Shown here: positions 3,501-26,830 of the stretch, one piece after another
How positions within the stretch are numbered: the stretch's first letter is position 1
Layout of the letters: every line of letters begins with the position of its first letter
From: Epithemia pelagica
Taxonomy: Eukaryota; Protista; Bacillariophyta
Reading direction: 5' to 3'
Assembly: GCA_946965045.2 (NCBI GenBank)
Contig: OX337239.1
Span: 2,666,001 to 2,730,000 of the forward strand
Length of the DNA: 64,000 nt
Notes under the pieces: generated by a model
What the model was told of the DNA's origin: nothing
The model's database searches: none
The model's input: the letters and a program-made list of their open reading frames with translations, nothing else
Program-made: the position numbers and the translations under genes

Positions 3501-6500
3501 CACCATGCGGGTAGCACTATCGACTAGGGTAAGACAGTAGTTAAACCCCCCAGGTGACGTTCCGGAGCCGTAGCCAATATCCATTCCAACAAGGTCCAAC
3601 TTACTCCGCTCTCGGCGACGAGACGGACCACGGCGACGTTGGTCGATCGTAGTAAAATCGCCAACGGTAGGAACGGATTCCTGGGCGTCCACCACCTGGA
3701 CACCGCTACCGACCGCCTGAAGAAGCGTGAAATCGCCAACCGTGCGATTACCGAACAGTCGGTGCAATTCGAACGGCGTGTGGCGACGCTGCTTACCAAT
3801 GCCGGTATCGGCCACATAGCAAGAGGGTAGAGTCGGGGAGGCAGACGGTGAAGACTTGGCTTGGGTTTGAGCACGTGTGGCGACGCGACGACCAATCGCC
3901 CGACAGGCACGACCATAAAGAACGCTGCCATGGCCATCACTATAGGCCAATGTAGGAGTAGCCGAACAGGGACGGATGGGAATGAGCGGATCGGCATCGT
4001 CATCTACCGACACGACGAACGATGGGAACGTGGGGGACATCCCCTGACCATCAGCAAGGAAACTGCAACCGGCACCACGTCGACGGTGAACACGGATGGA
4101 GAGAAGATGGACATCAAGTTGCGGAACATGAAAACAATCAGCCAATCGAACTGAATGTCCCCCCAGGACGAATTGGACTGTGCCTTTGCCAACAATGGGG
4201 ACGCGACGACCATCACCCATTTCCACAAATTGATGGGAGACTGGTTCGTATTCCTCATCCACGAAGAGGGCCCGATCCCAAAACATGTCGGCAGTTGCGC
4301 CGGAATCGGGGCACAACAGAGAACGACGGGGAGAGGGAGAGGACGGGGGAATACTACGGCGACAAACAGAGGACGGAGAGTCGACCGGAAATATGGGTGA
4401 TTCATCTAGTAAGAGATTACTGTCACTACCTCGACTACCAAGTATCCAATGTTCAGCGAAACCATCCGAGCCTTCCGACGGAGCCTCGCTCCAATCATCA
4501 GCATCGTCAAAGTCACTCTGTGGAACAGGGCAGGAGGTGAGGGACAGTACATCACAGGGCAATCTTGAGGGACCCAACAACTTACATGTCGACAAGGCAG
4601 TGTCGCTACCAACCGTGTCCACCACAGGAGCTCGACTGACGGGAGGAGCGGAATCTTGAGCTCGACGACCGGCCACACTGGGAGTCTCGGCACTACCCGA
4701 CGAAGAACGACGACCAGCAGGGAAGGAAGATGGGCGCCCTTCAGGATTCAACACCGTATCCTTGGTGTAGTCGTAGTCAATGGTGAACCCACACTCCTTC
4801 AACAGTGGGCACTTCCAAGTAGGATGAATACCGCGGCCACCTTTCTTGTTCCCCTTTCGGAGAATTTTACACATCAGGCATTTGTACTCCTTATGTTGCT
4901 GTTTCGCTTCGGCCGACGTCAAACTCGGTCCAACGGGCGTAAAATCATCGTCGACATCACTCTCACCAGAGGTCACTCGTCTCCCTTTGATCACCTGGTT
5001 GCTACTGCTTTTACCATCCATGACTTCCATAGTGGACCTGGATTTGTAACAGTGTTCCCGAAACTCCTGATGCATTGAGATAAACAGTTCTTGTGTCGAC
5101 ATGTGGAACAAATCCAGACGATTGCATTTAAACTCTTCTTCTAAGGTACGCATGGCGTGCCCATAAGGCCCCTTAACGACCAAGTAGTAGAATCGTACGC
5201 GAAACTGCAAATCAGTCACTTCATACTTGTGCGTCTGCAATCGTGCCCGAGCTTCCTTGGCTCGACGATAAAAGGTTGTGAGGTCTTCCTTGTTTCGATG
5301 CGAGAGGCGATGCCACGTATCCAGATCGTGAAAGAAGGAACTGGTGGTAGTCGGATAGGCAATCGCACGCAGACGCTCCAGTAACACGATACCATCCCCA
5401 TAAGCGTCCTCAGACTGTAACTCCGACAAGACACCGAGAGCCACGGGATTCCGTTTACCTTGAATGGCGATGACTAAATGATAATGCAGCTGTTGTGAAA
5501 CCAGACGGTCATGCTCGTTGTCAGGGGTAGTAGTGTGACGCGGAATCGTCGACCCATCTTGTAGATGCCAGTGGGGCATGTGTAGGATGTTCCGGACCGC
5601 TTCGTAAAACTGATCAAAGTGTTCGCCTGTAAATGCTGTGGCTGGATATTCCGGGAACCCTTTCTGTTCGCGCCGCAACTTGCCACTTGGGGTTTCGGTA
5701 AAACCACTCCCCCCCAAACCGACAGCACCAAGAGGCCGCGCAGGAGAGGCGGCACCAGGAGCAGCATTGAGAGAACGCACAACGTGAGCCACAGTATCAG
5801 GAGGAACCGAAGCACCGAGGAGAGCGGACTCCAAACGACGAGCAAGAGACGTGGTATCCGAGGGAGCGGGCGAAGCAACGAGGGCAGGGGACGGGGCACC
5901 CGGGGAGAAAGCGGCCACGGGACGCGGCCAAGGACCCTGTGTATATGGGACGGTAGGAAGGGGAGGGAACGGACCCCGTGGCGGACACAAGCGAGGGTCC
6001 CAACCCAAATACCGAACGGCGGCATCATAGGTAGAGGCGCCTGCAAATTCGGGGCTGGACCCACTGAGGGACCGAAAATCGGCAATACGGGCCCACGCGT
6101 CGCCCCAGGAGGTGTAGATTCCGGGATTCCAACCTCTACGGACGGCGTAGAAGTTCTTGTGGGAATGTTGGGTAGACCGGTCAGGTCCTATATACCCTCG
6201 GAGGTAAGGGTGAGCAACGCCGTGGAAGTCCCCACGGACAACCAACTCGGACAAAATCTCGGATGAGGAGGATTGGTAACGGACGTAGACCTCCGCAGCC
6301 CCAAATGTCACAGTAGGAGGAGGCATGGGACCAGTAGGACTCGGTGGGGTAGGAGGAGGACTGAACGACGCCAAAGGCCCAGGAGTAACAATCTCGGTTG
6401 GCACTGGACGACCTTCTAGTAAGCTCCCGCCCGGAGAAAGGTCCGCATCATAAAGAGCTTCTTCTGCCGCTTCAATTGTGTCGGCAACGCTGAGAGAACG

Positions 6501-6884
6501 GGGACACACCGATTGATCACCGCCTTGAATGATGACCTCACGAGTGTAGGGACTGTACGCACTCAACGGGTCGGACGATAAGGAGGCATCTGGATCTGGA
6601 CGTTGGTAACGAGGAGGAGGAGGAGACTCCGTCACTCGAGGAAGGGAAACCACCACTTCGGGAACAATGGCATGAACCATGGTCGGTGGATCAGCTGAGA
6701 CGACTGTGTTGGCCACGTTATGGTTGGTGGACTCAGCATTGGACAGTGGATCATCCAACGAAGGAATGGTGGGGTTGATGTTGAGCTGTTGTAACATACG
6801 GCCAAACGGGGTCCGTAACAGTCTCGGATGGGAGAAGAAGCCTCCAGGAGGATCATCGGCAGATCCACCAGTTGTGGAGGACAT
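408..6884 (-). CDS. Gag-Pol polyprotein (Gag with RNase H1-N/Cauli_VI-like domain, aspartic protease, DDE integrase, RT, RNase H)
   Basis: First ATG at 6884 (MSSTTGG). Protease CPDSGAT; integrase GMDIG...CDFDS...NGLVERAW; RT AKSRIVVLG, GDCKNAF, LYGL, YVDD; RNase H YTDSNW, CEAE, DNKG, NPADLLTK. The stop lies inside the 3' LTR. Confidence 0.95.
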   Translation of the reverse strand: MSSTTGGSADDPPGGFFSHPRLLRTPFGRMLQQLNINPTIPSLDDPLSNAESTNHNVANTVVSADPPTMVHAIVPEVVVSLPRVTESPPPPRYQRPDPDASLSSDPLSAYSPYTREVIIQGGDQSVCPRSLSVADTIEAAEEALYDADLSPGGSLLEGRPVPTEIVTPGPLASFSPPPTPPSPTGPMPPPTVTFGAAEVYVRYQSSSSEILSELVVRGDFHGVAHPYLRGYIGPDRSTQHSHKNFYAVRRGWNPGIYTSWGDAWARIADFRSLSGSSPEFAGASTYDAAVRYLGWDPRLCPPRGPFPPLPTVPYTQGPWPRPVAAFSPGAPSPALVASPAPSDTTSLARRLESALLGASVPPDTVAHVVRSLNAAPGAASPARPLGAVGLGGSGFTETPSGKLRREQKGFPEYPATAFTGEHFDQFYEAVRNILHMPHWHLQDGSTIPRHTTTPDNEHDRLVSQQLHYHLVIAIQGKRNPVALGVLSELQSEDAYGDGIVLLERLRAIAYPTTTSSFFHDLDTWHRLSHRNKEDLTTFYRRAKEARARLQTHKYEVTDLQFRVRFYYLVVKGPYGHAMRTLEEEFKCNRLDLFHMSTQELFISMHQEFREHCYKSRSTMEVMDGKSSSNQVIKGRRVTSGESDVDDDFTPVGPSLTSAEAKQQHKEYKCLMCKILRKGNKKGGRGIHPTWKCPLLKECGFTIDYDYTKDTVLNPEGRPSSFPAGRRSSSGSAETPSVAGRRAQDSAPPVSRAPVVDTVGSDTALSTCKLLGPSRLPCDVLSLTSCPVPQSDFDDADDWSEAPSEGSDGFAEHWILGSRGSDSNLLLDESPIFPVDSPSSVCRRSIPPSSPSPRRSLLCPDSGATADMFWDRALFVDEEYEPVSHQFVEMGDGRRVPIVGKGTVQFVLGGHSVRLADCFHVPQLDVHLLSIRVHRRRGAGCSFLADGQGMSPTFPSFVVSVDDDADPLIPIRPCSATPTLAYSDGHGSVLYGRACRAIGRRVATRAQTQAKSSPSASPTLPSCYVADTGIGKQRRHTPFELHRLFGNRTVGDFTLLQAVGSGVQVVDAQESVPTVGDFTTIDQRRRGPSRRRERSKLDLVGMDIGYGSGTSPGGFNYCLTLVDSATRMVFCYGLQRLTGGDLQDAFWRFLIDAGGIPKTVQCDFDSRFLGGSMAGFLKSLRIVVRSAAPRRQSSNGLVERAWRTGVRMARSFLAEAKLPRSFWYWALRESFHRMNLLPVQTSPSSWTTPLELFYSRKPDYRVLFPFGSIGYFHRPSDGRRSRQSFEAHSFVGIAVGRSDFCNGLVFYNPDLRAFSVSSDYSLDSNRSVQDAFPSQVYDGGLQLSLWARDSETKAIYPPGTPVYWRSPGTHTRHQGDVLQVPTATTATYKIKPTDPASDDPVEISSDSVWGVNDLKLGRPIAESTTASIDAPTTEAQPSDNDPLRPSWLRDGEAVTIQVDEHGYVQGELRLDPFGEWEFVSRDALDNNQRLVLSLSNLPQDYRERLQLGTMIPGWTLSQQKRASGRFVSASGLDCKKAPASLMSLPTLSANDNGIWTGAYGEEHGSLCGMDVFDEIDAATYARYKEAGFTAIPTMNIFTIKPDEMGNPYRAKSRIVVLGNLEERVWTNADRYAPVLQSTSCRLLLSMAVAMGRVAKQGDCKNAFCQPELPEDEIVICQPPKGCPLSKPGTYWRLKKTLYGLRRSPRHWYDKFVEVLMNDLGFERCANDPCVLVGKAREDGPPIYVGVYVDDFIYFSREAESEKWFETALGKILTVDFMGLVTYFLGCRYQWTRTASGGLCLHVSQPGFTEQLLTKFNMDKCTPATSPYRSGLPIDRIPTATTTAENNPLTSSYRSLMGGLTWLSISTRPDIAVAHKLLSRHITNLSPGHMEAAKHVLRYLRGTTENGIAFMENPADNLIHGYISWPNKVPPPDHDGSSTYTDSNWGPQDASRPLPEGEETRTVSDDECKSLQGALLIWSGGPIWWKVEREKRCSRSSCEAEIKSMDLATKEAQHLVYLMNELGVTDTHHPIPLYNDNKGSVDWSGTGAITKRLRHLNMRQVAIRDAIQAREVAVYHIPGNVNPADLLTKEHRDVSHFRELPDILVPELAGVGGVGIDNVMDKDEVARRGRTTSHKATMTRPKTQTKKVSWADIVRGSHRQ
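553..566 (-). promoter_or_regulatory. Polypurine tract
   Basis: The minus strand reads GCTGGAGTGGGGGG immediately before the 3' LTR. Confidence 0.8.
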
Positions 6885-6940
6885 GGTAAAGGAAGGTCTC
6901 CCCGTGGGGGTTACCCAAACGCAAAGCAAGGCACCGCAGT

Positions 6941-6954
6941 TGGGCTCGATAACC
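6941..6954 (-). promoter_or_regulatory. Primer-binding site, half-tRNA type
   Basis: The minus strand reads GGTTATCGAGCCCA directly after the 5' LTR. It resembles the complement of the tRNAiMet anticodon arm (GGTTATGAGCCCA) with one extra C, and has no TGG start. Confidence 0.65.
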
Positions 6955-7151
6955 TGATAGAATGCAGTGGGTAACGCAAACGGGAAAAGTGAAAGATTAT
7001 AAGATCTTACTGTCTATGAGATCCTCGGACGATGTCAGCCCAACTGACTTTCTTGGTTTGGGTCTTTGGTCGTGTCATTGTTGCTTCGTGACTGGTTGTG
7101 CGACCACGCCGGGCGACTTCGTCCTTGTCCATCACATTGTCAATTCCAACA
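6955..7151 (-). repeat. 5' LTR of copia element 1
   Basis: Matches 356-552 at 196/197 positions. Confidence 0.97.
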
Positions 7152-8014: not shown

Positions 8015-8615
8015 GTCCCCTCAACATAGCATCCATAGCCCACATAGCTTGCTAGGATTGCTAGGTTGTTGCGAAATTTCGGGCAGGATCACATTTTCCG
8101 GAAAAAATCCAAAATCCGTGAGAAAATTTTGATCGGTCGCATGTTACACTGCACATCCAATAACAGCCTCAAGTACTGCGTGGTAACTGGTAACAGATGC
8201 TGTTAGATTTCTTGCTGCGTATTACAAGCTGAGTTCAGGGAGTATGTTCCTGACGTAGACCCCTCGTAGATTTAGTACCATTTAGTATAATCCTTAATAG
8301 CGTTCGGCCTTACTAGTGAATGAAAGTGTCCGACTCGAGACTTCCCAGTGTCTTAAGAAAATAAGTTATTTGTCTTGGTGTGTTGTGTGACAGCTTCCGA
8401 ACGCTAGAATTTCGTCCAAAATGATGAAGAAAACGGTTGTTGTCTAACGACCATGGTGGACGGCCATCCCAACCGTTCGAGATGTTGCCGAGCTGCATCC
8501 GGATGCTTTAGGGTTTACTTGAACCACCCCCAATGGGGCAACATCTCAAACGGTTGGCATCATCCTCAATAATTCGATCATCCAACTCATCCCACGCAAC
8601 ACGGTCTACAACAGG

Positions 8616-11600
8616 ATGGAACGAAATTTTTCTGGGAAAGATATTCTTGACGTCTTTAAGACGCGATGCACCCGATCCTCGTTCGGATTCTGCAACAAGT
8701 GGATCCAAGACACCGAGATTGTAGGATACCTGAGAACTTGGTTGCCAGGGCTGTCGACAATCAGATTGAATTCTCTTTTCTCTAGAGACATTGTCCTTAA
8801 ACCCATTTTCAAAAATGAGGTGTCGGAACCAAACAAGTTTGGCTGGTACCGCCACAAAATCACAATCAATAAACAAAGATACACATTCTTGTATATAAGC
8901 TCCGACACAACAAAACTGCCAGTGATGTTGAACGATCACCAAGAATGGCTGGAGGCTGCAGCCGAGAATGTGATTCGGCGGTCGGGACGAGAGAAGCCAA
9001 CGAAGCGAAGGAACGAAGACTCACCAGGGGTACATGAAGGCACGGCAACTGTATCCAAGCAAGCAAGGAACACTACAACACCACCAGCAATGAAGAGCAC
9101 TGCAACGCAGCAACATGGTCAACCGCCACAAATTGGAGACAGCCCTACCGAAATGCAAACGTCACCACCTCACGACAACACAAATCAGGTGCTTGTTGGA
9201 GCAATCCAACATCCTGAATTGGCCACAGACGAAATCGGCCATGACCATCCACAGAGTTTGCCGATTGGTTTTTCAGTTTTCGAGTGTGAGATGATCCAAG
9301 GTTTATCGCAACAAATGGAAAGTGCCTATTTTGATGAGCCAAGGAACCGTAGGCTCTTTGCCGGCAAATGTGATTCTCCAGATCGTCAAAACGAAATCTT
9401 GAGCGATGGATAGAAACCCTTGAAAGGGCCATTTCCAACGTGGAGGCACTTCCGAATGTGGTTAACAAGGGAGACATCTTCCCCCTCAACCAGGAACAGC
9501 AACAGAGGGTACTGCTCAAGGCAACGTATTTACAACTTTCTTATAAGATAGCGTTGCTTGATATGCCACACGGTCGTACATGGCTGAACTGCATAAGCGA
9601 AGCCATTAGCAAAATGGAACAGATTTATGGTGAAAAAGTAAAAAAAAACATCCCAAGACCATTGCTCGTTTTCACAGGTACTTTCGGGAAAACGACAGTT
9701 TCCCTCATCCCAACTACCACGTTCATATTGGGAAAGAGCCATCGCCCGTCTTATTCGTTCACATACCTGAAGCAAAGGTAAAGTTTGAATGCTGGGCAAA
9801 GGAAAACCTGAGCACTCTTACAACAGAGTCTGCTCTAATGTACCTGAGGACAACATTGCTTCCGGATATGCATACCATGATCGTACAAGAGTGCATGGAT
9901 ACGAATACAACGCCAGTATCGTACGAGGACTTCTTGGCATCGATGAAGCTTTCCACCATTTCGCAAAGCACAGCATGGCGATGTATTGCTGCTGCAGGGT
10001 TCGTGTTCAAGGAACACACAAAAACATACTTCACTGATCGACACGAAAATGCTGAGAATGTTGCCCACAGAGCTGCTTTTGTCAAGAAGTACTTTAAGTG
10101 GGAAGAGCTGTCGTATCGGTGGGTGCAGCTCCCTACCGAGGATGCAATCAAACTTGAAAACGAAGGGAATGCGGGCAAGGAGAAGCTCTTGCCAAACAGC
10201 TTTGTATTTGAGTACACTGATGTAACAACATGCAAGCAGATGCGGGAGTACCATGTTGATGCCTTCCCAAGCGAATTTGAACGGTACATCAAACCAGAAA
10301 ACACAATTCACAATGGAAACTTGTCACACAGGTTTCCCTCCGACCGCAAACCTGTCATCCTCATCGGCCAGGACGAATCGATCTACAAGCAGTTTTCCTT
10401 CTCGTCTAAGGCATGATACACTAAAGATGGTGCAACTAAAATGCTGCCAAAGGATGATGGACATGGGATGATGATCAGCGCTTTTGTAAGCCGATCATGG
10501 GGCTTCCTTATGAACGGAAACCCGTTGCTTGCTGCAAGTCTATTTCGGATTAATGAACTCCGTCTCCATGCGACACACAACAAATACGTCTCTACCGAGG
10601 CTGCAGTGAACCTCAATGGTCACACTGCCAAGACTCCAATTACCAATGCCCAACCGTTCACTCGCTTTTTTGAATACGGAGCAGATAAAGAGGGATATTG
10701 GAATTATGAATACATGGCCTTGCAGTTGGAGGATATTGTCGATTGCCTCGTGGTCATGTTCCCCGCCCATGACTTTGTCTTTTTGTTCGACCAAAGCAGT
10801 GGTCATGGAAAACAACAATCCGATGGGTTAAATGCTCTGAACATGAATAACGACTGGGGAGGAGCTGTTCCCAGCATGCGGGACACACAAATTATTGATC
10901 AAGCTTGCCTTGGCCCGTACAACCATGACAACAAACTACGAGTTGGTGACGTACAACACCTCGTCTATCAGGAGAACGATCGTGGTCCAGTTGCTAAAAA
11001 AGGCCATCGTCTCAATGACGCGCAGCGTGTCGCATCGAAGAATACACACCGAACTGGTAGAAAGAAAAAGCGCAACCTCACAAAGAAGGAGCTCATGGCA
11101 AAACTTGTCCGGGTCATGGGACCTGGAATGCAATGTTCATTTCAATCGAAAAATGCTGGTGAACTACAGGACCTTTGTAAACGCTCCAACATTGCAACGG
11201 TGATTGAAGATGATGTGATCGAGGAAGGCTGGATGAATGCTGCAAAAGGGCTCTTTCAAGTGTTATGGGAGCGGGGGTGGATAGACCCTAACAACATGAT
11301 CAAGTACGTCAAGACAACCAGAGATGCATGGTTGGAAGCGGATAAGAAGACTGTGAAAGAGGCCTATCAGGCGGACTACAAAAAGTACTCTATGGTTCAT
11401 CTGATGAGCGAATGCTCCGATTTCAAGAACGAAAAATCTGCAATGGAGAAGCTGGCGGAAGACTTGTCTGAACGACATCGTTGCAGGATCGAGATTCTCG
11501 TATCGACCAAGTATCACTGTGAAATGGCCGGTGAGGGGATCGAGTATGGCTGGGGTTACTCAAAAAAAGTCTTTCGTGCTTTCTCACTGAATGAGAAGAA

Positions 11601-11883
11601 AGACAAAGCTGCCTTTTTACGATGTTTGACAGCGAGCCTGAAGAAAACAACACCCGAAATCATGCGGAAAATGTCAGCAAAGGCACGTCGCTATATGCTC
11701 GCGTACTTGTTATACGATCAAAATTCCAACAACAGAGACTATGCAGCTGCGGGCCTCTCGTATACCGAAATTGAAAAGATGTCAAAAGCAATCAAGTGTC
11801 ACCGATCCGCTTTCGACCAAGATCATGGCTTCATCTCACGTCTCTGGAGAGAAACGCAAGGATCTGGTGCAGTAGAAACCTGA
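8616..11883 (+). pseudogene. Large IS630/Tc1-like DDE transposase, disrupted
   Basis: Motifs IGQDES (D), FLFDQSSGH (D), STKYHCEMAGEGIE (equivalent to PxLNPIE) and KGLFQVLWERGW. Broken by a frame change near 9375-9413, a frameshift at the A9 run 9640-9648, and an in-frame TGA at 10414-10416 (Trp expected). Confidence 0.8.
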
Positions 11884-12295
11884 TCTAATCTCCATTTATC
11901 ATCAAAATGCATGTAACTTAACTATTTATAACAGCAATCCATTTTATTGAATGTATTTCTTGTCAGTTATTGGTATCAATGATCACTTCCGTGTTGCGTG
12001 CTCGTGTTGCGTGTTGGATTATCAGTTTATAAGTACCTCGAAAATGTGAGAGAGCGAGAAAATGGACGATTTTCGGAGCAGACCTCGCGCGAAACACGCC
12101 TCCCTCTCCGAAAACGCGCACGCATCGCAAAACTGGCACGCAAATCCTTTAGTAACTCAGCCCACATACCAAAACTTTACCGTTTTTTAGTAAGTGAGCT
12201 CAAGATTTTTTTTTTGGAATGTGAACTGAGGGCTGAGGAGAATGCTGCGTTTCGTGTTTCTTGTGTTTCGTGTTTCGAGTTTTTGCGTTTCGACC

Positions 12296-15181
12296 ATGGG
12301 GAAACCAAGCCCTAAGAAACAGTATTCAAAAGCAGGCGCTCAAAAACGAGACAGCATGAGTGACAAAGGAAATCTTGACGCTCTTATACTTGCAATAGAT
12401 GCAGCGGAAGAGCAGTCAGCCAAAGCAGCAGCGGCGCCCAAAGCAGCAGCAGCCGCAGCACCCGAAGCAGCAGCAACAGACGAAGCGACAACAACAAAGC
12501 ACCATCGGTTTCTTTCGGATCAAGACTTTGCCGAAGTGAAGGATAAAAAGCTTGCAGATGTTCGGCGTGGCCATCCAGAGAAGGACCACAGCAAACAGTA
12601 TTCGGAAACTCAAATGCGGCAGCTCCTCACCGATACGCGCACAGCGGACTACAAGAAAGGCGTCGAGGAAGTGGAGAAACTCCCTTCTCGTTCTGGACGG
12701 GATCCAATCAGGACTTTCACCGAAGGCCTCAAGACGCTCTCCAAGATCAAAGACAGTGCTGTACTTGCCTGTGCTATGGGAGAGTATGTCTCACGGAAGA
12801 TTTCAGCCACTTTTTCGGTCCAAGAAGCTCCAATTCGGAAGCCCGGTTCAGGCTTGCAAAAGGGGAAGATTGTGCCACTTTCGGGTGGAATGGGTCTCCC
12901 TGTCAAGAAGAACAGAAAACATACCTTCCCGATCGGCAAGCATGTCGGTTACACATTTGCGAACAATCCGGTAGTCAAGATCTACCTTGGAAAAGTGCTT
13001 CTGTTTGAGGTGAAGGAGTCAAAACTCCCAGGCGCCGGGTTTGGCGTTTTTGCAGTTCGGACAATCAAAGATGGTGAAGTGATTGGCGCGTACACGGGAA
13101 ACGACGTCACGTCTCGGACAGTTGTACCCAACGAGTACGCGATTCAGTTCGGACGTGACAATCGAAGGCTTCAAGCAGACAACAACGATCACTTTGGCAT
13201 GGGGCTGCACTTAATCAACGACCACCTACACCATCGGTACGGTACAGACAATCCACCGGATGAATCGGATGATCAATACAACGTGAGAATCATGCCGAAT
13301 CTTCTAGTCAAGGCAATCAAGCCGATCGAAAAGGGCAACGAGCTGTCTTTGTTTTATAACCTTTCGGACGAATCGCCGACGTCCTCCGAACAGGTTATCC
13401 GACCGTCGACGAGAGGTGACGACGACGAAGACGAGGGAAAGAAACGCGGTCGACCCAGTGATGAAAATGAAGACGACGAGAAAAAAACAAAGAAGGCTTT
13501 CGTTACCTCTTCTACTACTGTTTTCCGCCCAGTTGCTGCTGTTGCTCGTCCTCCTGCTCTTCCTTCTCCGCCTCCTCCGCAAGACGTTTCTGGGCACTAC
13601 AATTCGCCCCCTCAGCTGCCACCACATCATCCTCCGCCGTATCATCCTCATCCTCCGCCGTATTATGATCCACCGCATCATCCTCATCCTCCGCCATATT
13701 ATGATCCACCGCATCGTCATCATCCTCCTTCGTATCATTCTCCGCCGCATCATCATCATCATCCTCCTTCGTATCATCCTCCGCCGTATCATCATCATCC
13801 TCCTTCGTATCATCCTCCGCCGCATCATCCTCCGCCGCCGCATCATCCTCAGCCGCATTACCATGGGCATCCCCCGTCCTATATTCAACCCCATTATGGA
13901 GGAGGTTACCAGGGGGCTCTGCCTTTATCGCAGCAACAACAACGCACGACCCAGCCGGTCGTAGGTTCACCGGAGCGTCCGAGCAATCCCGTCCCACCTG
14001 CAGCACAAGCTCAACCCGCCTCTCGACCCGATCGCTCCCTTTCTGGAATGTTAGTACGAGTAATTGCCTTGCCAGAATTTTCAGAAAGTGACACCACGGA
14101 TGACAATTCTTTTGATCAGGAGATGTCGGATGACAATTCTTTTGCTCCGGAGATGAATGCGATCGACGAGTTAATGCAGGAGGGTGAATGGCAAAAGCAA
14201 CAGATGTTGCAAAATAGAGAATTGCGCAAGAAGTATTTCAAATCGCTATACGATAGTGAAAACAAAATCTATCGAGGCTGTTTTTTTACAACGCCGCCAG
14301 ACCTCCTCCAGTTGTTGGAGCAAGTGTGGAAAGGCAAACACCTGAACAGTAAAGGAAAGGGCACCTTTTTCAAATCTGTTCAAGACTACACCCCAAATTT
14401 GTTGATGGCGATGATGGAACATGAGGGCATGATGGCCAACACTCGGTACTTCAACGACTGCGACCCAGAACATGTCCAAAAAGTCACAACAGATTTCAAG
14501 CAATTTCTTGCCTCAGCTCTCCATGGAATGAACTACGCAAAAGATGAATCATTTGCGGACCAAATGAGCATTCACCTTTCGCTTATGAAGACCACTCGGG
14601 AAGAAGTGCAAGAACCTCACATCGACTTCTTGTTCCCGGCCGTAACAGGAAACATGTCCGAGAGTCCAAAAACGCCATCCGGGAAGCAACAAAAAAGCAA
14701 AAGGATGACTCGGCAATCGTTCTCAGATCTACCACTCCGGGAACGCATCCCCTTCATTGTTTTTATGCCCCTGACGGAGGAGGGTATGTCCATTGAATTG
14801 TGGAGCTACCGTGCTGAGAAGCACGAGAACTATACCCATGAGTTGGGTAACGTGGTACAAATCCCGTACGGCAAGTTTCTCCTCGTTCGAGGGGATACTG
14901 TCCATGCTGGTGGCTTTAAGACTGGAGAGCTGGGAAATCCACGTGCACATTTTTACGTGTACCAAGGAAAAGATGGGACCGTCCACGATCCCATGCCAAA
15001 GAACAGCTACAATCTACCTTCTGGACAAAGGCTTTCAGAGTGCTACTTCCATCAAAAGGACATTCCTGGTGATCGCCCACGTGGGATCATTCGGGTTAAC
15101 CTTACGCTCGATGGCCATCGCGTTGCCGTCCAGGGTGATTATCGTAGAGTGCTTCCGGCTACGAAAAAACCTCGTATTTAG
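12296..15181 (+). CDS. Cargo: SET-domain + Pro/His/Tyr-rich linker + C-terminal 2OG-Fe(II) dioxygenase-like fusion protein (about 960 aa, intact)
   Basis: SET at about 13000-13360: SKLPGAGFGVFAVRTIKDGEVIGAYTG...HLINDH...AIKPIEKGNELSLFYN. Dioxygenase at about 14560-14960: QEPHID...FMPLTEEG...VRGDTVHAGG...NPRAHFY (HxD...H...R). The ORF track starts at 12242; the second ATG at 12296 is also plausible. Confidence 0.75.
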   Translation: MGKPSPKKQYSKAGAQKRDSMSDKGNLDALILAIDAAEEQSAKAAAAPKAAAAAAPEAAATDEATTTKHHRFLSDQDFAEVKDKKLADVRRGHPEKDHSKQYSETQMRQLLTDTRTADYKKGVEEVEKLPSRSGRDPIRTFTEGLKTLSKIKDSAVLACAMGEYVSRKISATFSVQEAPIRKPGSGLQKGKIVPLSGGMGLPVKKNRKHTFPIGKHVGYTFANNPVVKIYLGKVLLFEVKESKLPGAGFGVFAVRTIKDGEVIGAYTGNDVTSRTVVPNEYAIQFGRDNRRLQADNNDHFGMGLHLINDHLHHRYGTDNPPDESDDQYNVRIMPNLLVKAIKPIEKGNELSLFYNLSDESPTSSEQVIRPSTRGDDDEDEGKKRGRPSDENEDDEKKTKKAFVTSSTTVFRPVAAVARPPALPSPPPPQDVSGHYNSPPQLPPHHPPPYHPHPPPYYDPPHHPHPPPYYDPPHRHHPPSYHSPPHHHHHPPSYHPPPYHHHPPSYHPPPHHPPPPHHPQPHYHGHPPSYIQPHYGGGYQGALPLSQQQQRTTQPVVGSPERPSNPVPPAAQAQPASRPDRSLSGMLVRVIALPEFSESDTTDDNSFDQEMSDDNSFAPEMNAIDELMQEGEWQKQQMLQNRELRKKYFKSLYDSENKIYRGCFFTTPPDLLQLLEQVWKGKHLNSKGKGTFFKSVQDYTPNLLMAMMEHEGMMANTRYFNDCDPEHVQKVTTDFKQFLASALHGMNYAKDESFADQMSIHLSLMKTTREEVQEPHIDFLFPAVTGNMSESPKTPSGKQQKSKRMTRQSFSDLPLRERIPFIVFMPLTEEGMSIELWSYRAEKHENYTHELGNVVQIPYGKFLLVRGDTVHAGGFKTGELGNPRAHFYVYQGKDGTVHDPMPKNSYNLPSGQRLSECYFHQKDIPGDRPRGIIRVNLTLDGHRVAVQGDYRRVLPATKKPRI
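13600..13880 (+). repeat. Coding low-complexity repeat (CATCCTCCGCCG-like units; HPPPY/HHHPPSY)
   Basis: Visible tandem degenerate repeats inside the SET-2OG ORF. Confidence 0.9.
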
Positions 15182-15932
15182 ATCGCGAACAAAGAAGCCG
15201 ATCAAACTTAGATCTTTCCTTGTGGTGAAAGTGTGTTATTGTTGAAAAAGAATACCATGGTACGTTGAGTTGCAGTATGACATTAAGATTTACTAGTTTA
15301 TTCCTTCATATTATACTTTAGTACATTGTCGTGTTGTGTCGAAAACGCAAAATATGAGATAAGAATCATAGCTCGTCTGGGACCAATCACAAACTCCCTC
15401 GTACATCCATACGAGGCGTGCCCGCAAACCGGGACCCAACTACCGACACTGGCAAGCTGGATAACGACGATGACGATGATGACGAAGAGGACAAACAGGA
15501 TGAGCGATGATAGCTACAACAAGGACGACTACAATACAACGACGACAATAATAGCCACGACAATGACGAGGACTTGGACGACGACAATGATGATAATCAC
15601 AACAAGAATGACTGTAGAAGCACTACCATGATGACAAATCGATTCATATTTAGTGATTAAGGATACCTAAAACGTCCATCAGTAGATATCTAGTACGCCT
15701 CGTCCTCATGATCCAAGTAATCGGGACCAAAAAGCCCGTTTTGCTGCATACCGATGAAGTCTTCTTGGGTCTCGAGAAATCCATCATCGGCATACGAATC
15801 AATGGATGTCCGGTATGCACGGGAAGGATTGCTAAAGAAAAAGGAGGAGACGACGGGATGTTTTCTCCCAATGCCAGCGACTCATTCAAAGTCTGGCGAG
15901 GGTCTGTCGCTCCACTTTCCTTCACCTGTTCC

Positions 15933-16595
15933 TCAGCAATCCGACGCTGGAAAGCATGCTTCTGGGAGGGGGTCAGTGCGAAAGCTCGAGACGCCACCTT
16001 CGGGGAAGAAGTTACTTTCTTCGGGGTCACATAAGACTCTGGAGTCTTGTTCTCGACGTCGTCCTCCTTCTTGATCTCCTTCTCGGGCTTGCTGTCGGGC
16101 TTGTTGTCGGGCTTGCTGTTGGGTTTGGTGTCTGTGGCAGCAGAGGGCGCGTCGTGAGAAAGGGAGACTCAAAACCAACAATGAACAATCAAACTTACCT
16201 TCTTTGCCGACAGCCTCGATCGCAAGGAGCTCGGCCGCGATATCCGACAGGTTAGCGCATTCGACGTCCTTGTTGCTGACGAAGAACACTGGGATACCAT
16301 CTTCATCCCCAATGGTGAGTTGCCACTGTTTTGCGCGCTCGTGCCACGACGAAGGACCCTCAAGGTTGAAGGTCACATGCTTCTTTGTCGAAGCGGGAGA
16401 CTTTGTCGTCGTCGTCTTCTTCTTCTTCGACGTTTTGTTGTCCACGGCCGTCTTTGTCTTCATTTTCTTGTTTGCCTTGTTTCCCTTGTTTCCCTTGTCG
16501 GAGGGAAATGCGGTTGTGGAGGGAGCTGCGGCGGAGTCCTCCTGCTCCTTCTTCGCAGACTCAGCTCGTTTGGTAGCACTACGCGTCTGGCGCAT
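15933..16595 (-). CDS. Cargo ORF of unknown function (Lys/Thr-rich N-terminus), possibly continuing into 15650-16030
   Basis: 220-aa ATG-initiated ORF inside the TIRs; no recognised domain. Confidence 0.4.
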   Translation of the reverse strand: MRQTRSATKRAESAKKEQEDSAAAPSTTAFPSDKGNKGNKANKKMKTKTAVDNKTSKKKKTTTTKSPASTKKHVTFNLEGPSSWHERAKQWQLTIGDEDGIPVFFVSNKDVECANLSDIAAELLAIEAVGKEGKFDCSLLVLSLPFSRRALCCHRHQTQQQARQQARQQAREGDQEGGRRREQDSRVLCDPEESNFFPEGGVSSFRTDPLPEACFPASDC

Positions 16596-16747
16596 CGTTG
16601 GGATTCGTTCGTTTGATTGTTGTGTTTGTTTGTTTGATTGTTGCCCGCTCTCCGTTCTTGTGTCTTCTAGGGAATCCCCCCGCGCTCATTCGTGAACAAT
16701 ATCGGCGCGCGGCACAAAATCAACTTGCAGCATGAAGCAACTTCCGA

Positions 16748-17320
16748 ATGACCCGCCGTGCAATGGAACAATCAAACAGAGACGACAGGAAGAGGCAAGG
16801 AAGAAGAAACAAGATGACCAACATGAGGACGAAGTTCGAGTTCAACGAAGAGGATGGCCGTGAGGGTGGTGCTGGTCTCCCGTTGAAGTCGTGCTTTTAT
16901 GCCAGCGATGTTTGCGCGCTCATCGGGCCCATGTCGAGAAACAAGGACACTGGCCACAACATCGTCGACCGTGGCCATCTGCTTGTGCAGCGGGAGCTTG
17001 CGACCGACTACCTACGGATTGCAGTCTTTGACCGGGATGCAACAAGCGAGCATGAGGAACCAGCGTTGGTTGTTCCAGTTGGGTTCATTGCTCTGTCGCA
17101 CCTGGACCAGGTCTCTGGAAAGACGAGCAAGAACGGACCTCCCATGGGACGCATCCGCCTCTACACACGCTGCTCCATCAACCCTAAAGCCTGCATGGAA
17201 CCCCAGGTCGTTACAATCTACATGGGCAGAAAGGATATGGATCGCTTCAACATTTCCCTTGGTGCGATGATGCTCAAGCACCCGCTTCAAAATCTCTTCT
17301 TTAATCATCAACAAGCCTAG
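16748..17320 (+). CDS. Cargo ORF of unknown function (190 aa)
   Basis: ATG-initiated ORF with globular-looking composition inside the TIRs, divergent from 15933-16595. Confidence 0.45.
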   Translation: MTRRAMEQSNRDDRKRQGRRNKMTNMRTKFEFNEEDGREGGAGLPLKSCFYASDVCALIGPMSRNKDTGHNIVDRGHLLVQRELATDYLRIAVFDRDATSEHEEPALVVPVGFIALSHLDQVSGKTSKNGPPMGRIRLYTRCSINPKACMEPQVVTIYMGRKDMDRFNISLGAMMLKHPLQNLFFNHQQA

Positions 17321-17950
17321 ATAGTGAACAATGTAGCAGCGTTTTATGATTATCATTTGAGTAGGATCTTCATTCTCTATGAATACGATCTAATTCTATA
17401 GTTGTGTTACGTTTACCGTACAATACATTGCGTTCAGGTACGGCTGTGTGAGTCACAACAACGAAAAGAACATCAATCTTTGTTGTGAACGACGCAACTT
17501 CTAGTCTAAGTTCCATATATCTAACGAGAAGAATATCAATTTTTGACGTGAACAACGCTACAAGTGTTCATAGTCTTTGTTCTATCTTCTATCATTCGAT
17601 TCTACAATAGAGGTGCATTGGTTGCACCAAGTTTTGCCGTTAGTCGCCGTAGTAAATCGCGCGGCGACCACCTTCAACTAGATAAAACGACACCTACAAA
17701 ACGAATGCAGCACCGACATCGTTCTCCATGCTCAACCCATGAATGGAGAAGAGGTTCAGAGCATGGGATCATGGAGCCGTCTCCTATTTGGCAAGAGATC
17801 GGTCAAAAGGACCGTTCACCATGGTCAATTTTTGGTAGAACGGTAGAGGCATAAAAAGAAGGGCTATATTAAGGGGATGGCTCGCGCGGATTACGTAGAT
17901 TTCCTACTGGAGCGCTACGTCAGGAACATTCTGTCTGAACTCAGCTTGTA

Positions 17951-19840
17951 TGGATTACACTCATGTTATCTCCATAAATGCGAAACGTGGTGCCGGTATA
18001 GACAAACAGTCTAGAACTGGTAAGGCAAAGGTAGGAGTGCCATTTTCGGTGAGTGTTGCTACCCGTCTTAATCCAGGGGCCAAGGGGTTGAGCAAGTCGA
18101 CGAGTCGGACGACCACCAGAAGCAAAAAGACAGTCCAAGAAGCGGCGCCAAGAATTCCACGCTTTGATACTGGGACGTTCTTGATAAGGGTTCAAGTCTC
18201 GCAAAGAAGATGTAGTAGATTGAATACCCTGGTAACTCTCATTAGTAATCGTCGTCCCGTTGCAGGTAGAGGCGGCAAGCATTAATCATGAGTAACTCTG
18301 TGTCGGATTCGGTGAAGGAAAGAGCGTGATCCATGATGAAGGAGTCGTTAATACGCTGAAGGGATGGAATGAAGGTTTGTTCCAGTTCAATCCGACATTG
18401 AATAGACGACAAGTATTGGCGAACTTGTGGAAGCCACTGCATGGGTACCAAATGCGGCAATGGGATTATCACATTGTCCAATATAGAAAAACTAGTGCCT
18501 GCGAGACACTGACCCCACGAAATCATGATGTGTGCTAATTGACGGTGTATGCCTTCTGAGCGTAAGCATGCGAGAAACATATAGACCTGAGAAACGCCTC
18601 GTTCCGTAGAAAGTGCGCGCAGCCCAATCCCACCATAAGCTGATGAACCATACACCACTGCGTTGGGGGTACATCTGTTGTAGCCGGCTTTAGGAAGCAG
18701 GACCTTTTTGAACTGTCGCTGTAGTGCGTTGCAGTGCCGATCAGAGAGGCAAGACGACGGCATCGGGTACGTAATACTAGGGAGGTATACGGCGTGGTAA
18801 TAGGCCCACGCGTCCATGCGGGTGAACGGACTGCGGGCCATCACCTGCGTATGTGTTGTATTTTTCTTCAGCATGGCCTGAAATAAGCTGCGGTCGGTCG
18901 AGGACGGTGCCTTTTGGACGCCAAGGGTTTTGTGGCTTTCATATGCAGACAATTGCCTTAGGGGGCAAGGTGGCTCATGCGGATGAAACTGGATAGTAAT
19001 TTGAGGACCAACTCGGCCACTGTTGAGGTAAGGAGTCCCATCAACTGTGAACGAGAAGTAGAGAAAGTGGTAGGAACACTTTGTCGTCTCGAGAGCTCCA
19101 CCTGAGGTACGGAGGATATCATGCCATCGTTGAGCGTCAGACTGTGCGCGATTGATGTAATGTTCCATTGATGCTTGGCGTGGGAGGTCAAAATCGTTGA
19201 CGCTCCCGCTTGTATCGTCGACAAAACCCACCATAAAAATTCGTGCTTGCACTGTGCCATCCGGTGATTGGAAGGTCGCTCCATTAGCTTTCTCGTCATA
19301 AGCGTCAAACAATATTGTGCTTATGACGCACCAGATTGCTGGAGAGTTCCCGGCACCTTGGCCGGAGCCGTAAATAGGAAAGATTCAACAATGCTTGTAG
19401 GATCGATCAGAGACACCGAGTTGTGTCTTCAGATAATATTTCGCGTCTTCTAAAGTCTTGGCATTAATGAAAACAATCGATCGATGTTGTCCAAAAGAGC
19501 GAGAAGCCAAACTGCCAAACGACATGACAATCCTGTCATAACACGCCGTGGCATCGTAGTCGAGATGAACCAATGGACGACGGCTTGCGCGGCAAATTTC
19601 ATATTGAAATTCTTCAATCAGAGTAGGTAAAATTGCATCTTTTCCGGGGACAGCGCCGAATTGGCCTGGATGAAGAAGTTGATTGTTTGAACCGTTTTGA
19701 ATCAACTGAGGCCACTTGATAGCTAAGATTAGATTGTAATCTTGCTCATACAAGTGTATCACTCGTAACCGGTGGATGCGATGATTGTTAAGTTCTTTCA
19801 AAATCATAACGTTGACGATGCTTTTCCATCGCTCCATGCA
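17951..19840 (-). mobile_element. 5'-truncated non-LTR retrotransposon (LINE) RT fragment, frameshifted
   Basis: RLRVIHLYEQDYNLIL, GQFG, LDYDATACYDRI, GFVDD and SYESHKTLGV in ORFs 19385-19837, 18242-19312 and 17941-18282. Cut at 17950 by the mariner-like element. Confidence 0.85.
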
Positions 19841-20029
19841 GTACTACAAAAATGGCCGGGACCAATCGGCTAAGTAATCCAGAAAAATCGCCAGCCCGCA
19901 TCGTACCGCCCCCGGTCAAGAAGGGACCGACGGACGAACGAGGAACGGACATTGCACCCAGGGTCTGGAATTCAAAAAGTGGGACTTTAATGACTTAAGG
20001 GAATGTAACTTAAATTTAGCTTGAATTAA

Positions 20030-20290
20030 GCCATTCAATTGAAATCCTCCTCCTTTACTTTCATTGAATTTCACAATCCACTCAACTCAATACCGATTTT
20101 TTCTTGGATTCACTATTCCGATTCAAGTCTCATCATCTCAGACGGGGAATGTCAATTCCCTAATTCAATTCCCAATTCACTAAAATAGACACTTCCCAAT
20201 TCCATTCAATTCACTTTATCAGACGATATCAATTCCCAATCCAATCCAATTCCTTCTTACTCACTACAAGAATTTGAGAATCCAATCAAT
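20030..20290. repeat. Left subterminal array of CAATTC/CCAAT motifs of the hAT
   Basis: Many short repeats, mirrored in inverted orientation at 26620-26830. This is typical of hAT transposase-binding arrays (inference). Confidence 0.6.
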
Positions 20291-20562
20291 TTTCTCCTAC
20301 GCACAGATGGAATTACCATTCTCCCCCCAATGTGTCATGTGAATTACGTTTCTATACAATATCACACAGTGACCCTACCTTCAACCGCCTCATCTTTGTG
20401 ACTTGTGACACTCTCTTACCTCTCACCTCTACCGTCCATCCACCAATCCTTCAACAGTTCATTGTCTGTTGCAGCTTGCAACACATGTTGTCTGGCTTGA
20501 TTGTGCGTCTTAATCATCTTCAAAGCCCAGCATCCTTGTCCACCCTGTCTGGATCTACCATC

Positions 20563-23500
20563 ATGTCAACACAACCGACGATGGCAGAACAAGAGGAGAC
20601 ACCCCCGGCTCATCCCACACAAGCAGAGAACCCAGACCCTCCACCTGCACAGCAAGACGAGAACCCACCCGCTGCTTTAGCCCCCCAAGGGAACAACAAT
20701 CAACAGAATAGGCAACACCCTACCCAAGCCCAACGAACCGAAGCAATTCATCAAGAAATCAAGAAAGAGAAAGACTATGTCCCCTTCCTCAAAAGTCCAC
20801 CGAGAGAGCATTTCAAGAATCTGAATACCTACTGGGGAACAGTGAGACACTTGGACTTTTGCCAGTTAACAGAATTACAAGCAAGACTTGACACCAAAGA
20901 AGTTAGCAAAATGGAAGGTATTTCTCGATGCTTTGCTGTACTCAACCAAGCATCAAAAGAGGACCAAACAGCACCCAAAAAGTCATGGGGATCCATATGT
21001 AAGCGTCTTGTGGTGTGCCCGATTTGCTTTGAAGACCCAGACAAGTCTTTTTTCGCCTCTACCATCCTCTGTGGTGTCAGCAAGCAGAAGAAAAGTGGCT
21101 CCTCTTCGAATGTTAGCCAACATATGGATTCTTTCCATCCGCATGTGAAAGAAGAAATGGAACGAAAAAAAAATTGGACCGAAGTCCAATGTAGAAAGCA
21201 ACCAACCACTTATGACATCCTACAAGGGTTCCATGATGTCAAAGGACGAGGCTAGAATCAAGTTTCAACAATCAATCTACCAGTTTGTCAACGACAACGG
21301 CTTACCCACTTCAACAGTGGAAAAGAAGTCCTTCCGAGCTATGCTGGAATTCGCCATTCTTAACGCCCAGAAGCTGTCGACAAAAGATTGTGTCATGAGC
21401 AACAAAGCCATCATACGCAAGCAACTTGATTCCTACAACAATTTTCTCCAAACTGTTTCCTCCCTATGCCTGAATGTCCGGATGGCCTACAAGCTAATTT
21501 GTGGCAAAACAATTCCCTTCGCCACAATTTGTCATGACATATGGCAAGGCCATCGAAAAGACATCCTTGGATTGTGCCTAATGCTGATTGACCCCAGGAA
21601 TTGCGTGTTTTACAAGATTCCCGTAGGTCTCTGCGAAACAGACGGCCACACAGCAGCCCAAGTGGCGACCCATACACTAAAAATCCTCACAACCATTGGA
21701 ATTACGCAGTCTGACCTCTCCTCTTCCGTAAACGACAATACAAATTCGGCAGTCCTTGCCGGAAAGTACATTGTGGGAAATCAGACTGGAGGAAAGTGCG
21801 ATATGCATCGTGCGGAATTAATTCTTAAGCACGCCACCGGCTTGGCTGTACGACGAAGGGGGGGAAGGGTAATCGACCAGTTTCCCGGATTTGTGGACAC
21901 ATACAAGAAAGCCTTGAAGTTAGCTTCAATCCTGATGACGAAGAGAAAGAAGAGATTCCAGGCATTGAGGGACTACGCAACAAAAAATCACCAAGTTGTA
22001 GTGGAGATCCGTATGCCGAACACAACCAGGGTTCTCGGATGCGCTCTCACATTCCATGATCTCCTACGTGATAAGTACGTCATGGATGACTACAATTCAC
22101 AAGAGTTTTCTGTAGACAAAGACTTCCGCGAGAATTATCTGTCCAAGGAGGACTGGCAGGCCATAGCAGAATTCGAAGGAATTCTTTCTCCACTCAAGAA
22201 ATGCGCCATGTCCTTACAAGCAGACGATCCTTCCTCTGCTGCAGGCTCTTTGCTGGAAATCTTTGGTTGCCATCATGGAATCAAATACACAAAGACAACG
22301 GTGTCTCTGTTCTGCTTGTGAACCCCACAGAACTAGACACAGAGTTCCAACGTTGGGATGCCAGGTTAACCATAGAGAAACTCCGTTCAAAAAGGAAAAA
22401 TATCAAGTTTGCAGATTTACTGCCCGCCTCACGGATGCTTATTAACCGGCTTCTACGTGAATTTCGCACCTACATGATGAATGGTGACGACGTCCATGCA
22501 GAGAATGCTATCTGCGGTCATCCGTTTCTCTGCTACATGGCACCGTACATCCTGAAAAAAATCAAGATCTACGACGACTACGACGTCTCCAGAATCCAAA
22601 AACAATTTGTTGATGACATGGTAGCAAAGTTTTCCACTCCTGAAAGGTTGGCAATGAATGGACCAGCCCCAATGGCCGGGACAGCCAATGAGGAGGTTGT
22701 AGATATAGAAGACGACGACTCGGATGATGACGATGTGTTCAATATTTTTTGGAATCATGGAGAGAATGAAGACAGCACGTCCGTGGAAAACAACAATCTT
22801 AACACGTTGGACGAGCAGAAGAAGAGCTTTAGAGAACAATGTAACAACGAATTCAAGGGGTTCAAGGATTACTGTCAGCGCATTATCCACAGTTCCTGGG
22901 AATCGTTGATTAGGGAGTATCCCACCGTTCTTTTTTCTGAAAAGTCACCAAAATGGACGCCTCAAGAAAAGAAAAAGTTCAGACGGGCATGTAATGATCA
23001 AGATTTCAACAGTGCGGGCAAGTATTTTGATGTCTTACAGTGGTGGCAGGCGAACAAGAGTAATTTCAGGATGATTTTCCCAAGTGCCCTCGTGTGGCTC
23101 TCGAAGCCTTCTACAAACGCTTTCCAAGAGAGGATATTTTCTTTCTCCTCATGGTTTGATAGCAATAGATTGATGAGGAACGAGCTCAAGAAACATTTCG
23201 AGATTCGCACCATGGAGATGGTAACAAGAAAGGTTCGTGGAGAGATTGAGGTTAATGAAATGACCCTGAAAAAGAAATCTCAACACACCACAGAGAACGA
23301 GGACGAACCGCAAACCAGGGGTAAGGCCGAGGAGCAAGCTAGGAGTAATGCCACACAGCGCCAGATAAGTCAACAGGAGCAACTGCAGAATCAACAAAGA
23401 ACAGCTTCAAGCCAAGAGAGAGACGAGGCCCAGGCCGAAATAGAGGCGGAAGTAATCTCCGTGGTTGATGACGATGACGATGAAGACAACAATGGAACTG

Positions 23501-24327: not shown

Positions 24328-24470
24328 TAAATACAGAACATGACGGAACAGAAAACGAAAAAGACTACATACGACTACATACGAGAACGACTACATACAA
24401 GATACATGCGAGAACCAAAAAGAAAAAGAACAAACAAGGAAAAAGAGATAGTAACTAATAAGAAATTGAC

Positions 24471-26527: not shown

Positions 26528-26619
26528 ACAGGCGTACCTAACATCTTCTTAGTTGTATGTTGTACGACTATAATGGTGGAGAAAGGATAAGGAGTACAGT
26601 GTGTGACTGTGAGTCATAA

Positions 26620-26830
26620 TTCAGAGAATGAATGGAATTTGTGAATGTGTAATTCATTTGTTCTGAATGGTGGTGTGAATTGGGAATGATTCATTCAATT
26701 CAAATTCGTTCGAAAAGGGAATTGGGATTGGAATTTAATTCCAATTGGTTCGAAAAGGGAATTGGGGATTGAATTCAATTCAAAGGGTATGAAATAGGGG
26801 AATAGTAAAGTTAAGTGAATTTATTGATTG
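26620..26830. repeat. Right subterminal GAATTG/GGGAATT array of the hAT
   Basis: Inverted counterpart of 20030-20290, including a duplicated TTCGAAAAGGGAATTGGG. Confidence 0.6.

What the first reader, a model, noticed from the sequence alone, without database searches (positions are those of the whole stretch)
12296..15181. SET domain fused to a 2OG-Fe(II) dioxygenase: a possible writer plus eraser in one polypeptide
The N-terminal half has the SET signatures (GxG-xGVFA, IND-H, ELxxxY with the terminal Tyr). After a His/Pro/Tyr repeat linker comes a DSBH-like domain with an intact HxD...H...R set (EPHID, VHAGG, NPR). A methyltransferase-like and a demethylase/hydroxylase-like domain together on a TE would be an unusual architecture. 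The substrate is unknown.
Basis: partly seen in the sequence, partly recalled or inferred. Interest (0 to 1): 0.8.

Follow-up and report, generated by a model that had tools for sequence, protein, structure and literature searches.

The report
Transposon-borne methyltransferase-oxygenase fusion gene
A many-copy DNA transposon, probably of a diatom, carries one unbroken gene joining a lysine-methyltransferase-like (SET) domain to a domain predicted to fold as an iron/2-oxoglutarate oxygenase, which likely helps the element alter its own chromatin, but nothing shows that the oxygenase erases the mark the SET domain would write.

Summary

'Eraser' is not supported: JmjC and AlkB signatures are missing, TET/JBP is unproven, and the substrate is unknown. 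SET has ND for the usual NH, so its activity is open. No RNA data.

SET plus a PhyH-like oxygenase as separate transposon genes is published for red-algal Plavaka elements, and this scan noted similar unfused pairs on other diatom-like DNA. The in-frame fusion, and its carriage on this transposon type, were not found in print or among relatives. New variant of a known kind.

The parts
8223..8224 (.). TA outside the left end (likely target-site duplication)
   Evidence: Sequence. No empty site was seen.
8225..8269 (+). Left terminal inverted repeat (first 14 bp perfect, 37 of 45 alike)
   Evidence: (I1)
8616..11883 (+). DDE-type transposase-like gene, IS630/Tc1/mariner-like by recalled motifs; broken in this copy (indels near 9380 and 9640, stop at 10414-10416)
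   Evidence: A 1053-aa relative (96% identical over the queried part, 43-member cluster) and 130 longer relatives. D586, D725, E976 invariant in 42 of 42. No Pfam or PDB transposase hit.
12296..15181 (+). Fused SET-linker-oxygenase ORF, 961 aa (an in-frame ATG 18 codons upstream is an alternative start)
13007..13366 (+). SET domain (aa 238-357), PR/viral-like, ND in place of NH
13367..13500 (+). Acidic/basic stretch with KKRGRP (AT-hook-like or nuclear signal; recalled motif, no library hit)
13595..13909 (+). Pro/His/Tyr tandem-repeat linker
   Evidence: (D2)
14156..15055 (+). 2OG-Fe(II) oxygenase domain (aa 621-920): H775, D777, H870, R883; basic low-confidence loop after HxD
15650..16595 (-). 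Third ORF of the element, Lys-rich, with a predicted 67-nt GT-AG intron (16198-16132); function unknown
   Evidence: no Pfam hit above cut-off
16736..17320 (+). Fourth ORF of the element (194 codons stop to stop); function unknown
17904..17948 (-). Right terminal inverted repeat
17949..17950 (.). TA outside the right end
   Evidence: several run contigs end exactly at 17950, with different sequence behind 17950-17955

Best explanation
The ORF is a cargo gene of a many-copy cut-and-paste DNA transposon and encodes one frame joining a SET domain to a predicted 2OG-Fe(II) oxygenase, which likely work together as an anti-silencing tool: the SET domain would methylate a lysine on a histone or other chromatin protein, and the oxygenase would hydroxylate a different nearby target (a DNA base or a protein residue) rather than remove that methyl group. 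Shown: the ORF, the SET match, the element's ends, many copies, two versions of the linker-oxygenase half, conserved metal and 2OG residues. Predicted: the fold. Inferred: expression as one protein, nuclear location, activity of both domains, the targets, and the benefit to the element.
For: One stop-free ORF. 13 of 35 listed family proteins carry all six SET and oxygenase motifs in one chain. The fusion is kept in two versions, with N-half 95-97%, linker about 45% and oxygenase 73% identical. Between the versions, family-conserved oxygenase columns are kept more often than others (62 of 68 against 131 of 182, Fisher p 0.001). Truncated copies end at scattered positions (aa 142, 248, 294, 354, 368, 382, 402, 428, 804, 894, 930), as random decay would give. 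H775 107/107, D777 106/107, H870 108/108, R883 106/107. Distant relatives of the oxygenase lie beside Helitron Rep/helicase ORFs (L006, L007, L015) or a Plavaka transposase (L011), 4 of 16 loci by Pfam, and L009 also holds a DOT1-type methyltransferase (E 1.5e-9). Published parallels: SET and PhyH-like oxygenase genes on red-algal Plavaka, SET on oomycete HarbingerS, MuDR and proto-Helentron, TET/JBP on fungal transposons. Diatom TEs carry H3K9me2/3 and H3K27me3 (PMC4504042). The loop after HxD is net basic in 41 of 50 long-loop members.
Confidence: 0.5

Rival explanations
1. True writer plus eraser: the oxygenase is a non-JmjC lysine demethylase that removes repressive methyl marks (or the SET product) while the SET domain writes another mark.
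For: N-demethylation is one outcome of hydroxylation by this fold (own knowledge). Fusion to SET puts it at methyl-lysines. Catalytic set intact. One relative carries a TFIIS N-terminal domain (P0038, E 3e-12).
Against: No JmjC Pfam hit in the window protein or 90 relatives. Invariant Arg on the last core strand and no conserved Lys in the columns shown. Best fold matches are PhyH-like and prolyl hydroxylases.
Confidence: 0.1
2. Passenger cargo: the element picked up a host oxygenase gene and a SET gene, which fused by chance; one or both domains are inactive or of no use to the element.
For: The oxygenase nests among stand-alone, probably host proteins. SET lacks the canonical NH. 22 of 35 listed proteins are partial. 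The conservation pattern between versions could date from before capture.
Against: The frame is kept across two versions with a reshuffled linker. A third, 86%-identical subfamily also has SET followed by the same type of linker, though frameshifted (P0182). The same oxygenase family recurs on unrelated transposon types.
Confidence: 0.2
3. Two-step writer: the SET domain methylates a lysine and the oxygenase then hydroxylates the same residue or peptide, making a compound mark that host silencing readers do not recognise.
Against: Most relatives of the oxygenase have no SET partner. The linker of about 250 residues is low-complexity. No direct evidence.
Confidence: 0.1
4. The two halves are made as separate products (splicing, early polyadenylation or an internal start), so the fusion exists only in DNA.
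For: The repeat linker is open in several frames, so its openness alone is weak evidence. The linker-oxygenase half is swapped as a block between element versions. No RNA was available.
Against: SET and oxygenase stay in one frame in 13 proteins with different linker lengths, and breaks do not cluster at one site.
Confidence: 0.1

Closest known systems
Red-algal Plavaka accessory genes PAG2 and PAG3 (Bostrychia moritziana; bioRxiv 10.1101/2025.02.11.637652; section 8 read whole plus method passages; supplements closed, so sequences could not be compared)
   Same: DNA transposon carrying a SET domain and a 2OG oxygenase with no Pfam hit, whose best HHpred hit there was 2OPW (recalled as human PHYHD1, PhyH-like); cassette moves between transposon types; proposed self-modification.
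   Different: There SET is fused to an N6-adenine methylase and the oxygenase to a ParB-like domain, in two genes. Here SET and oxygenase share one ORF, no methylase or ParB domain was detected, the transposase is not Plavaka, and no array of inverted repeats was seen beside the gene. Homology of the two oxygenases is untested.
SET-carrying transposons of oomycetes: HarbingerS, MuDR (PMC12730594, passages), proto-Helentron-Pi (PMC4067079, passages)
   Same: SET domain as cargo of a stramenopile DNA transposon.
   Different: No oxygenase partner is mentioned in the passages read; different transposon superfamilies.
TET/JBP-carrying fungal DNA transposons (PMC12730594, passages)
   Same: 2OG-Fe(II) oxygenase as cargo of many transposon types; anti-silencing is the proposed role.
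   Different: Our domain has no Tet_JBP Pfam hit and its best fold matches are PhyH-like; 'mariner' and 'Tc1' do not occur in that paper's main text.
PhyH-like 2OG oxygenases (FtmOx1, AsqJ, AndA) and prolyl hydroxylases (PHD2, P4H)
   Different: Identity 5-17%; no PhyH Pfam hit; basic insert after HxD; family-specific Q772, W836, H885, Y887, N903, Y905.
SETMAR/Metnase (PMC9062482, PMC8704517; search listing and start of abstract only)
   Same: SET domain tied to a mariner-type transposon sequence.
   Different: SETMAR is a host gene with SET fused to the transposase; here SET is separate cargo, fused to an oxygenase, in a recently multiplied element.

Membership tests
SET domain | Profile match above curated cut-off | tested here: met
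   PF00856 29 bits against 22.4, positions 1-105 of 105; Atlas 0.95 to SET/PR clusters
SET domain | GxG, YxG and ELxxxY motifs (recalled) | tested here: met
   GAGFGVFA, AYTG, ELSLFY
SET domain | Canonical NH of the NHS/NHxC motif (recalled) | tested here: not met
   INDH here; ND or NN in the copies aligned. Active PR-type domains also lack it (own knowledge), so this does not show inactivity.
SET domain | SAM-dependent lysine methylation | not testable with these tools
2OG-Fe(II) oxygenase superfamily | DSBH fold | tested here: met
2OG-Fe(II) oxygenase superfamily | HxD...H triad and 2OG-binding Arg | tested here: met
   107/107, 106/107, 108/108, 106/107
PhyH-like clade | Pfam PhyH match | tested here: not met
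   No hit in the window protein at E<=0.1 or in 90 relatives at E<=0.01
PhyH-like clade | Closest fold and profile neighbours are PhyH-like | tested here: inconclusive
   They rank first but prolyl hydroxylases are within 1 Z unit; Atlas PhyH row 0.93, family on 51% of members
JmjC histone demethylases | JmjC profile match; Lys rather than Arg binds 2OG (recalled) | tested here: not met
   No JmjC Pfam hit; R883 invariant, no conserved Lys in the core columns shown
AlkB demethylases | RxxxxxR motif (recalled) | tested here: not met
TET/JBP | Tet_JBP profile match | tested here: not met
   No hit
TET/JBP | HxD, Hx-small, R-x5-aromatic motifs (recalled) and TET-like fold rank | tested here: inconclusive
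   The window protein has HAG and R883-x5-Y889, but the aligned FtmOx1 stretch has the same spacing; no direct structural comparison with a TET protein could be made
IS630/Tc1/mariner superfamily | Terminal inverted repeats with TA target duplication | tested here: met
   an empty site was not seen
IS630/Tc1/mariner superfamily | DDE/D triad in the family's motif context | tested here: inconclusive
   GxDE, FDxS and PKxHxE...IE invariant or nearly so in 42 relatives, resembling recalled motifs; second D to E is about 250 aa instead of about 34; no Pfam or PDB transposase hit; one relative has HTH_33 at E 3.7e-6
Plavaka PAG cassette | Plavaka transposase; PAG2 adenine methylase; PAG3 ParB-like domain | tested here: not met
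   No Plavaka or methylase Pfam hit in the element's ORFs; the ParB-like domain was found there by HHpred only and could not be tested the same way

The most novel reading that the evidence does not exclude
A diatom transposon encodes a single-chain chromatin enzyme in which a SET domain writes a lysine methyl mark and an oxygenase of an unannotated, repeatedly transposon-captured family then oxidises methyl-lysine or a methylated base, so the family is a new class of epigenetic eraser or mark-modifier, separate from JmjC, AlkB and TET/JBP.
Probability: 0.2. Interest if true: 0.85.

Novelty: new variant of a known kind. Interest (0 to 1): 0.56.

Why it matters
Transposon cargo of SET domains and 2OG oxygenases recurs in red algae, oomycetes, fungi and diatom-like genomes, but no substrate is known for the PhyH-like type in the papers read. 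A natural in-frame fusion is the strongest hint so far that the two activities work at the same place, and it gives one intron-free ORF, with two natural oxygenase variants, that can be expressed and assayed. It also points to a family of at least 228 clusters with no Pfam model. If that family acts on histones or DNA, it would add an enzyme class to chromatin biology. If it acts on a metabolite, the finding is a modest case of gene capture.

Tried and rejected
No whole genome is held, so copies could not be read in their settings and no dN/dS was computed. Single-sequence AlphaFold failed (pLDDT 34.8). Single-sequence PDB search of the C-terminal domain gave nothing useful; the Kelch-type hits to the SET region are repeat artefacts. 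No RNA holder listed. Run contigs are short, and no listed piece joins SET to oxygenase. In those runs 17955-17972 is almost uncovered and no empty site appeared, so this copy's right junction is not confirmed there; the left-junction contig reaches only 26 bases into the element. No relatives of the oxygenase in viral contigs, prokaryote genomes or phages (best E 3); none of the SET region in viral contigs. NCBIfam gave nothing for the domain. No JmjC or TET/JBP structure is among the 50 rows listed or the rows shown; unlisted families are not excluded by that. A suspected JmjC tail on relatives P0049/P0055/P0063 got no support. TpA depletion is not specific to the element (o/e 0.50 in the ORF, 0.49 in the GT47 gene). 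Short SET-only or oxygenase-only database proteins were considered as a designed split and rejected because their breaks are scattered. An assembly artefact was rejected because 13 distinct sequences on many contigs have the fusion. Complex prediction was not used: no binding is claimed. Nine paper searches for such a fusion or element listed no paper that describes one; Repbase Reports and most subscription journals are not covered, and the Bostrychia supplements could bear on this.

Full report
OBSERVATION. 12296-15181 (+) translates to 961 residues with only the terminal stop. Pfam finds SET at aa 248-355 (E 1.5e-6, 29 bits, cut-off 22.4, whole profile) and a weak PR-type match. The ESM Atlas also puts aa 65-365 next to SET/PR clusters, score 0.95, from haptophytes and giant viruses. 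The SET motif reads INDH where the canonical one (recalled) has NH. A Pro/His/Tyr repeat follows (84 of 103 residues).

THE ELEMENT. Inverted repeats bound 8225-17948 (14 bp perfect, 37 of 45 alike), with TA outside both ends. Upstream lies a transposase-like gene, broken here by two indels and a stop that contigs of three DNA-like runs read differently. A 1053-aa relative with a 43-member cluster exists, and 130 longer relatives were found, the named ones from the diatom Fragilaria crotonensis. D586, D725 and E976 are invariant in 42 aligned in contexts that resemble IS630/Tc1/mariner motifs (recalled), with an unusually long gap before the Glu. No library confirms the superfamily. Copia elements fill the window, so a diatom host is likely, not shown. 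Contig depth in run X1 is 1,600-5,900 in the bins over the element against 377 and 779 in the two outer bins (the tool warns this is no copy number). Several contigs end exactly after the right repeat plus TA, with different sequence behind. This copy's own junctions were not confirmed in the runs. Two more unannotated ORFs lie inside the element.

THE FUSION IS A FAMILY TRAIT. Four database clusters plus one singleton gave 34 listed proteins (4 more members were not listed). With the window protein, 13 of 35 hold all six motifs in one chain. They come in two versions: type A (window, P0168, P0169) and type B (P0002 and nine more). The N-half is 95-97% identical, the linker about 45%, the oxygenase 73%. 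Run contigs fit this: a type-A oxygenase contig has about half the depth of an N-half contig (1,444 against 2,846 in X1; 1,673 against 3,223 in X2). The simplest reading is an in-frame swap of the linker-oxygenase block between subfamilies (inferred). A third subfamily (P0167, P0182; 86%) has SET and, in P0182, a B-like linker out of frame. Family-conserved columns are kept more often between A and B (62 of 68 against 131 of 182, p 0.001), which points to purifying selection but does not date it. The 22 partial proteins include the stand-alone P0017; ends of truncated copies are scattered from aa 142 to 930. All these proteins come from one source type and share contig lengths, so they are probably one organism and not independent support across species.

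RELATIVES ELSEWHERE. None of 90 scanned relatives has a SET match; one has a TFIIS N-terminal domain. A metagenome scan gave 16 loci, several near-duplicates; none holds a relative of our SET or transposase. By Pfam, L006, L007 and L015 have the oxygenase beside Helitron Rep/helicase ORFs, L011 beside a Plavaka transposase (E 7e-24), L009 near a DOT1-type methyltransferase (E 1.5e-9); in L004, L009, L011 and L012 it follows a weak viral-Rep-like domain in the same ORF (below cut-off); L003 lies beside RPN7, a host gene (29 ORFs scanned, not all). Trees (IQ-TREE quick, 99 rows; FastTree, 140 rows; rows not covering the core were left out) put the window's versions with P0017 (support 97-99) inside a group that also holds L001-L003, and the transposon-linked loci in a separate clade with long-branch warnings. 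This suggests separate captures of one family by unrelated transposons; direction was not tested.

HOW IT LIKELY WORKS. Diatom TEs are marked by H3K9me2/3 and H3K27me3 (PMC4504042, abstract and section 8) and by CG methylation (PMC9998398, passages). An element that keeps a SET domain and an oxygenase in one frame would most plausibly use them on its own chromatin. I give 0.5 to 'SET methylates a lysine, the oxygenase hydroxylates a different chromatin target', 0.2 to passenger cargo, and 0.1 each to a true demethylase, a two-step mark and separate products. Every step past the sequence and the fold is inferred.

WHAT IS KNOWN. Red-algal Plavaka elements carry PAG2 (adenine methylase plus SET) and PAG3 (ParB-like plus a 2OG oxygenase, HHpred best hit 2OPW), and the cassette moves among transposon types; the same section says Helitrons have captured 2OG oxygenases and SET proteins (bioRxiv 10.1101/2025.02.11.637652; supplements closed). 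SET rides on oomycete HarbingerS, MuDR and proto-Helentron elements, TET/JBP on 11 fungal lineages (PMC12730594 and PMC4067079, passages). PMC4738411 (passages) showed no such fusion. Nine searches listed no paper on a SET-oxygenase fusion on a transposon. Earlier AI notes of this scan report unfused SET plus TET-like or PhyH-like pairs on other diatom-like DNA and a TET-carrying Mutator in this genome; a look-up by sequence found nothing like this protein. These notes are unchecked.

VERDICT. The architecture is real, multicopy and apparently undescribed as a fusion; the pairing is known; 'eraser' is a possibility, not a result. New variant of a known kind, interest 0.56.

Noticed in passing
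window 19959-27021: hAT-like element with inverted ends and a perfect 8-bp target duplication (19951-19958 and 27022-27029). Besides the broken hAT transposase it holds an HhH-GPD DNA glycosylase ORF on the minus strand (24471-25322, E 7.8e-8): a second transposon here with possible DNA-modifying cargo.
   Followed up: partly
L004:721-2034, L009:1-1158, L011:624-1775, L012:4694-5890: The oxygenase family fused behind a weak viral Rep (HUH)-like domain; L009 also has a DOT1-type methyltransferase and L011 a Plavaka transposase, each with clustered inverted repeats nearby, recalling the red-algal PAG layout.
   Followed up: partly
L006, L007, L015: Helitron-type ORFs with added GIY-YIG and Ulp1 protease domains (L006, L007) or an OTU domain (L015), lying tail to tail with the oxygenase gene in L006 and L007 and head to head in L015.
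   Followed up: partly
window 8616-11883: Large unannotated family of about 1000-aa transposase-like proteins, with diatom members, and about 250 residues between the second Asp and the Glu; no Pfam model.
   Followed up: partly
proteins P0046, P0110, P0124, P0132 and others: Many oxygenase relatives have an N-terminal Cys-rich stretch (CxC...C.N), seen by eye, possibly a zinc-binding domain; absent from the window protein.
   Followed up: no
proteins P0049, P0055, P0063: Three relatives share a conserved C-terminal domain after the oxygenase; it looked JmjC-like by eye but got no Pfam or PDB support.
   Followed up: partly
window 8466-8560: 24-nt inverted arms 47 nt apart just upstream of the transposase start (I21).
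   Followed up: no
window 17951-19843: The element's right flank reads as the end of a LINE-like reverse transcriptase (recalled motifs, no Pfam hit); in the three runs a contig matching it from 17974 is joined to other sequence, so that site may differ between isolates.
   Followed up: partly
window 59555-63127: Broken ORFs that look by eye like a Plavaka/EnSpm-type transposase; no Pfam hit above cut-off for the three of four scanned.
   Followed up: no
window 408-7013, 34102-56643: A long open copia polyprotein with a Cauli_VI (RNase H1 N-terminal) domain, and nested copia and other repeats.
   Followed up: no
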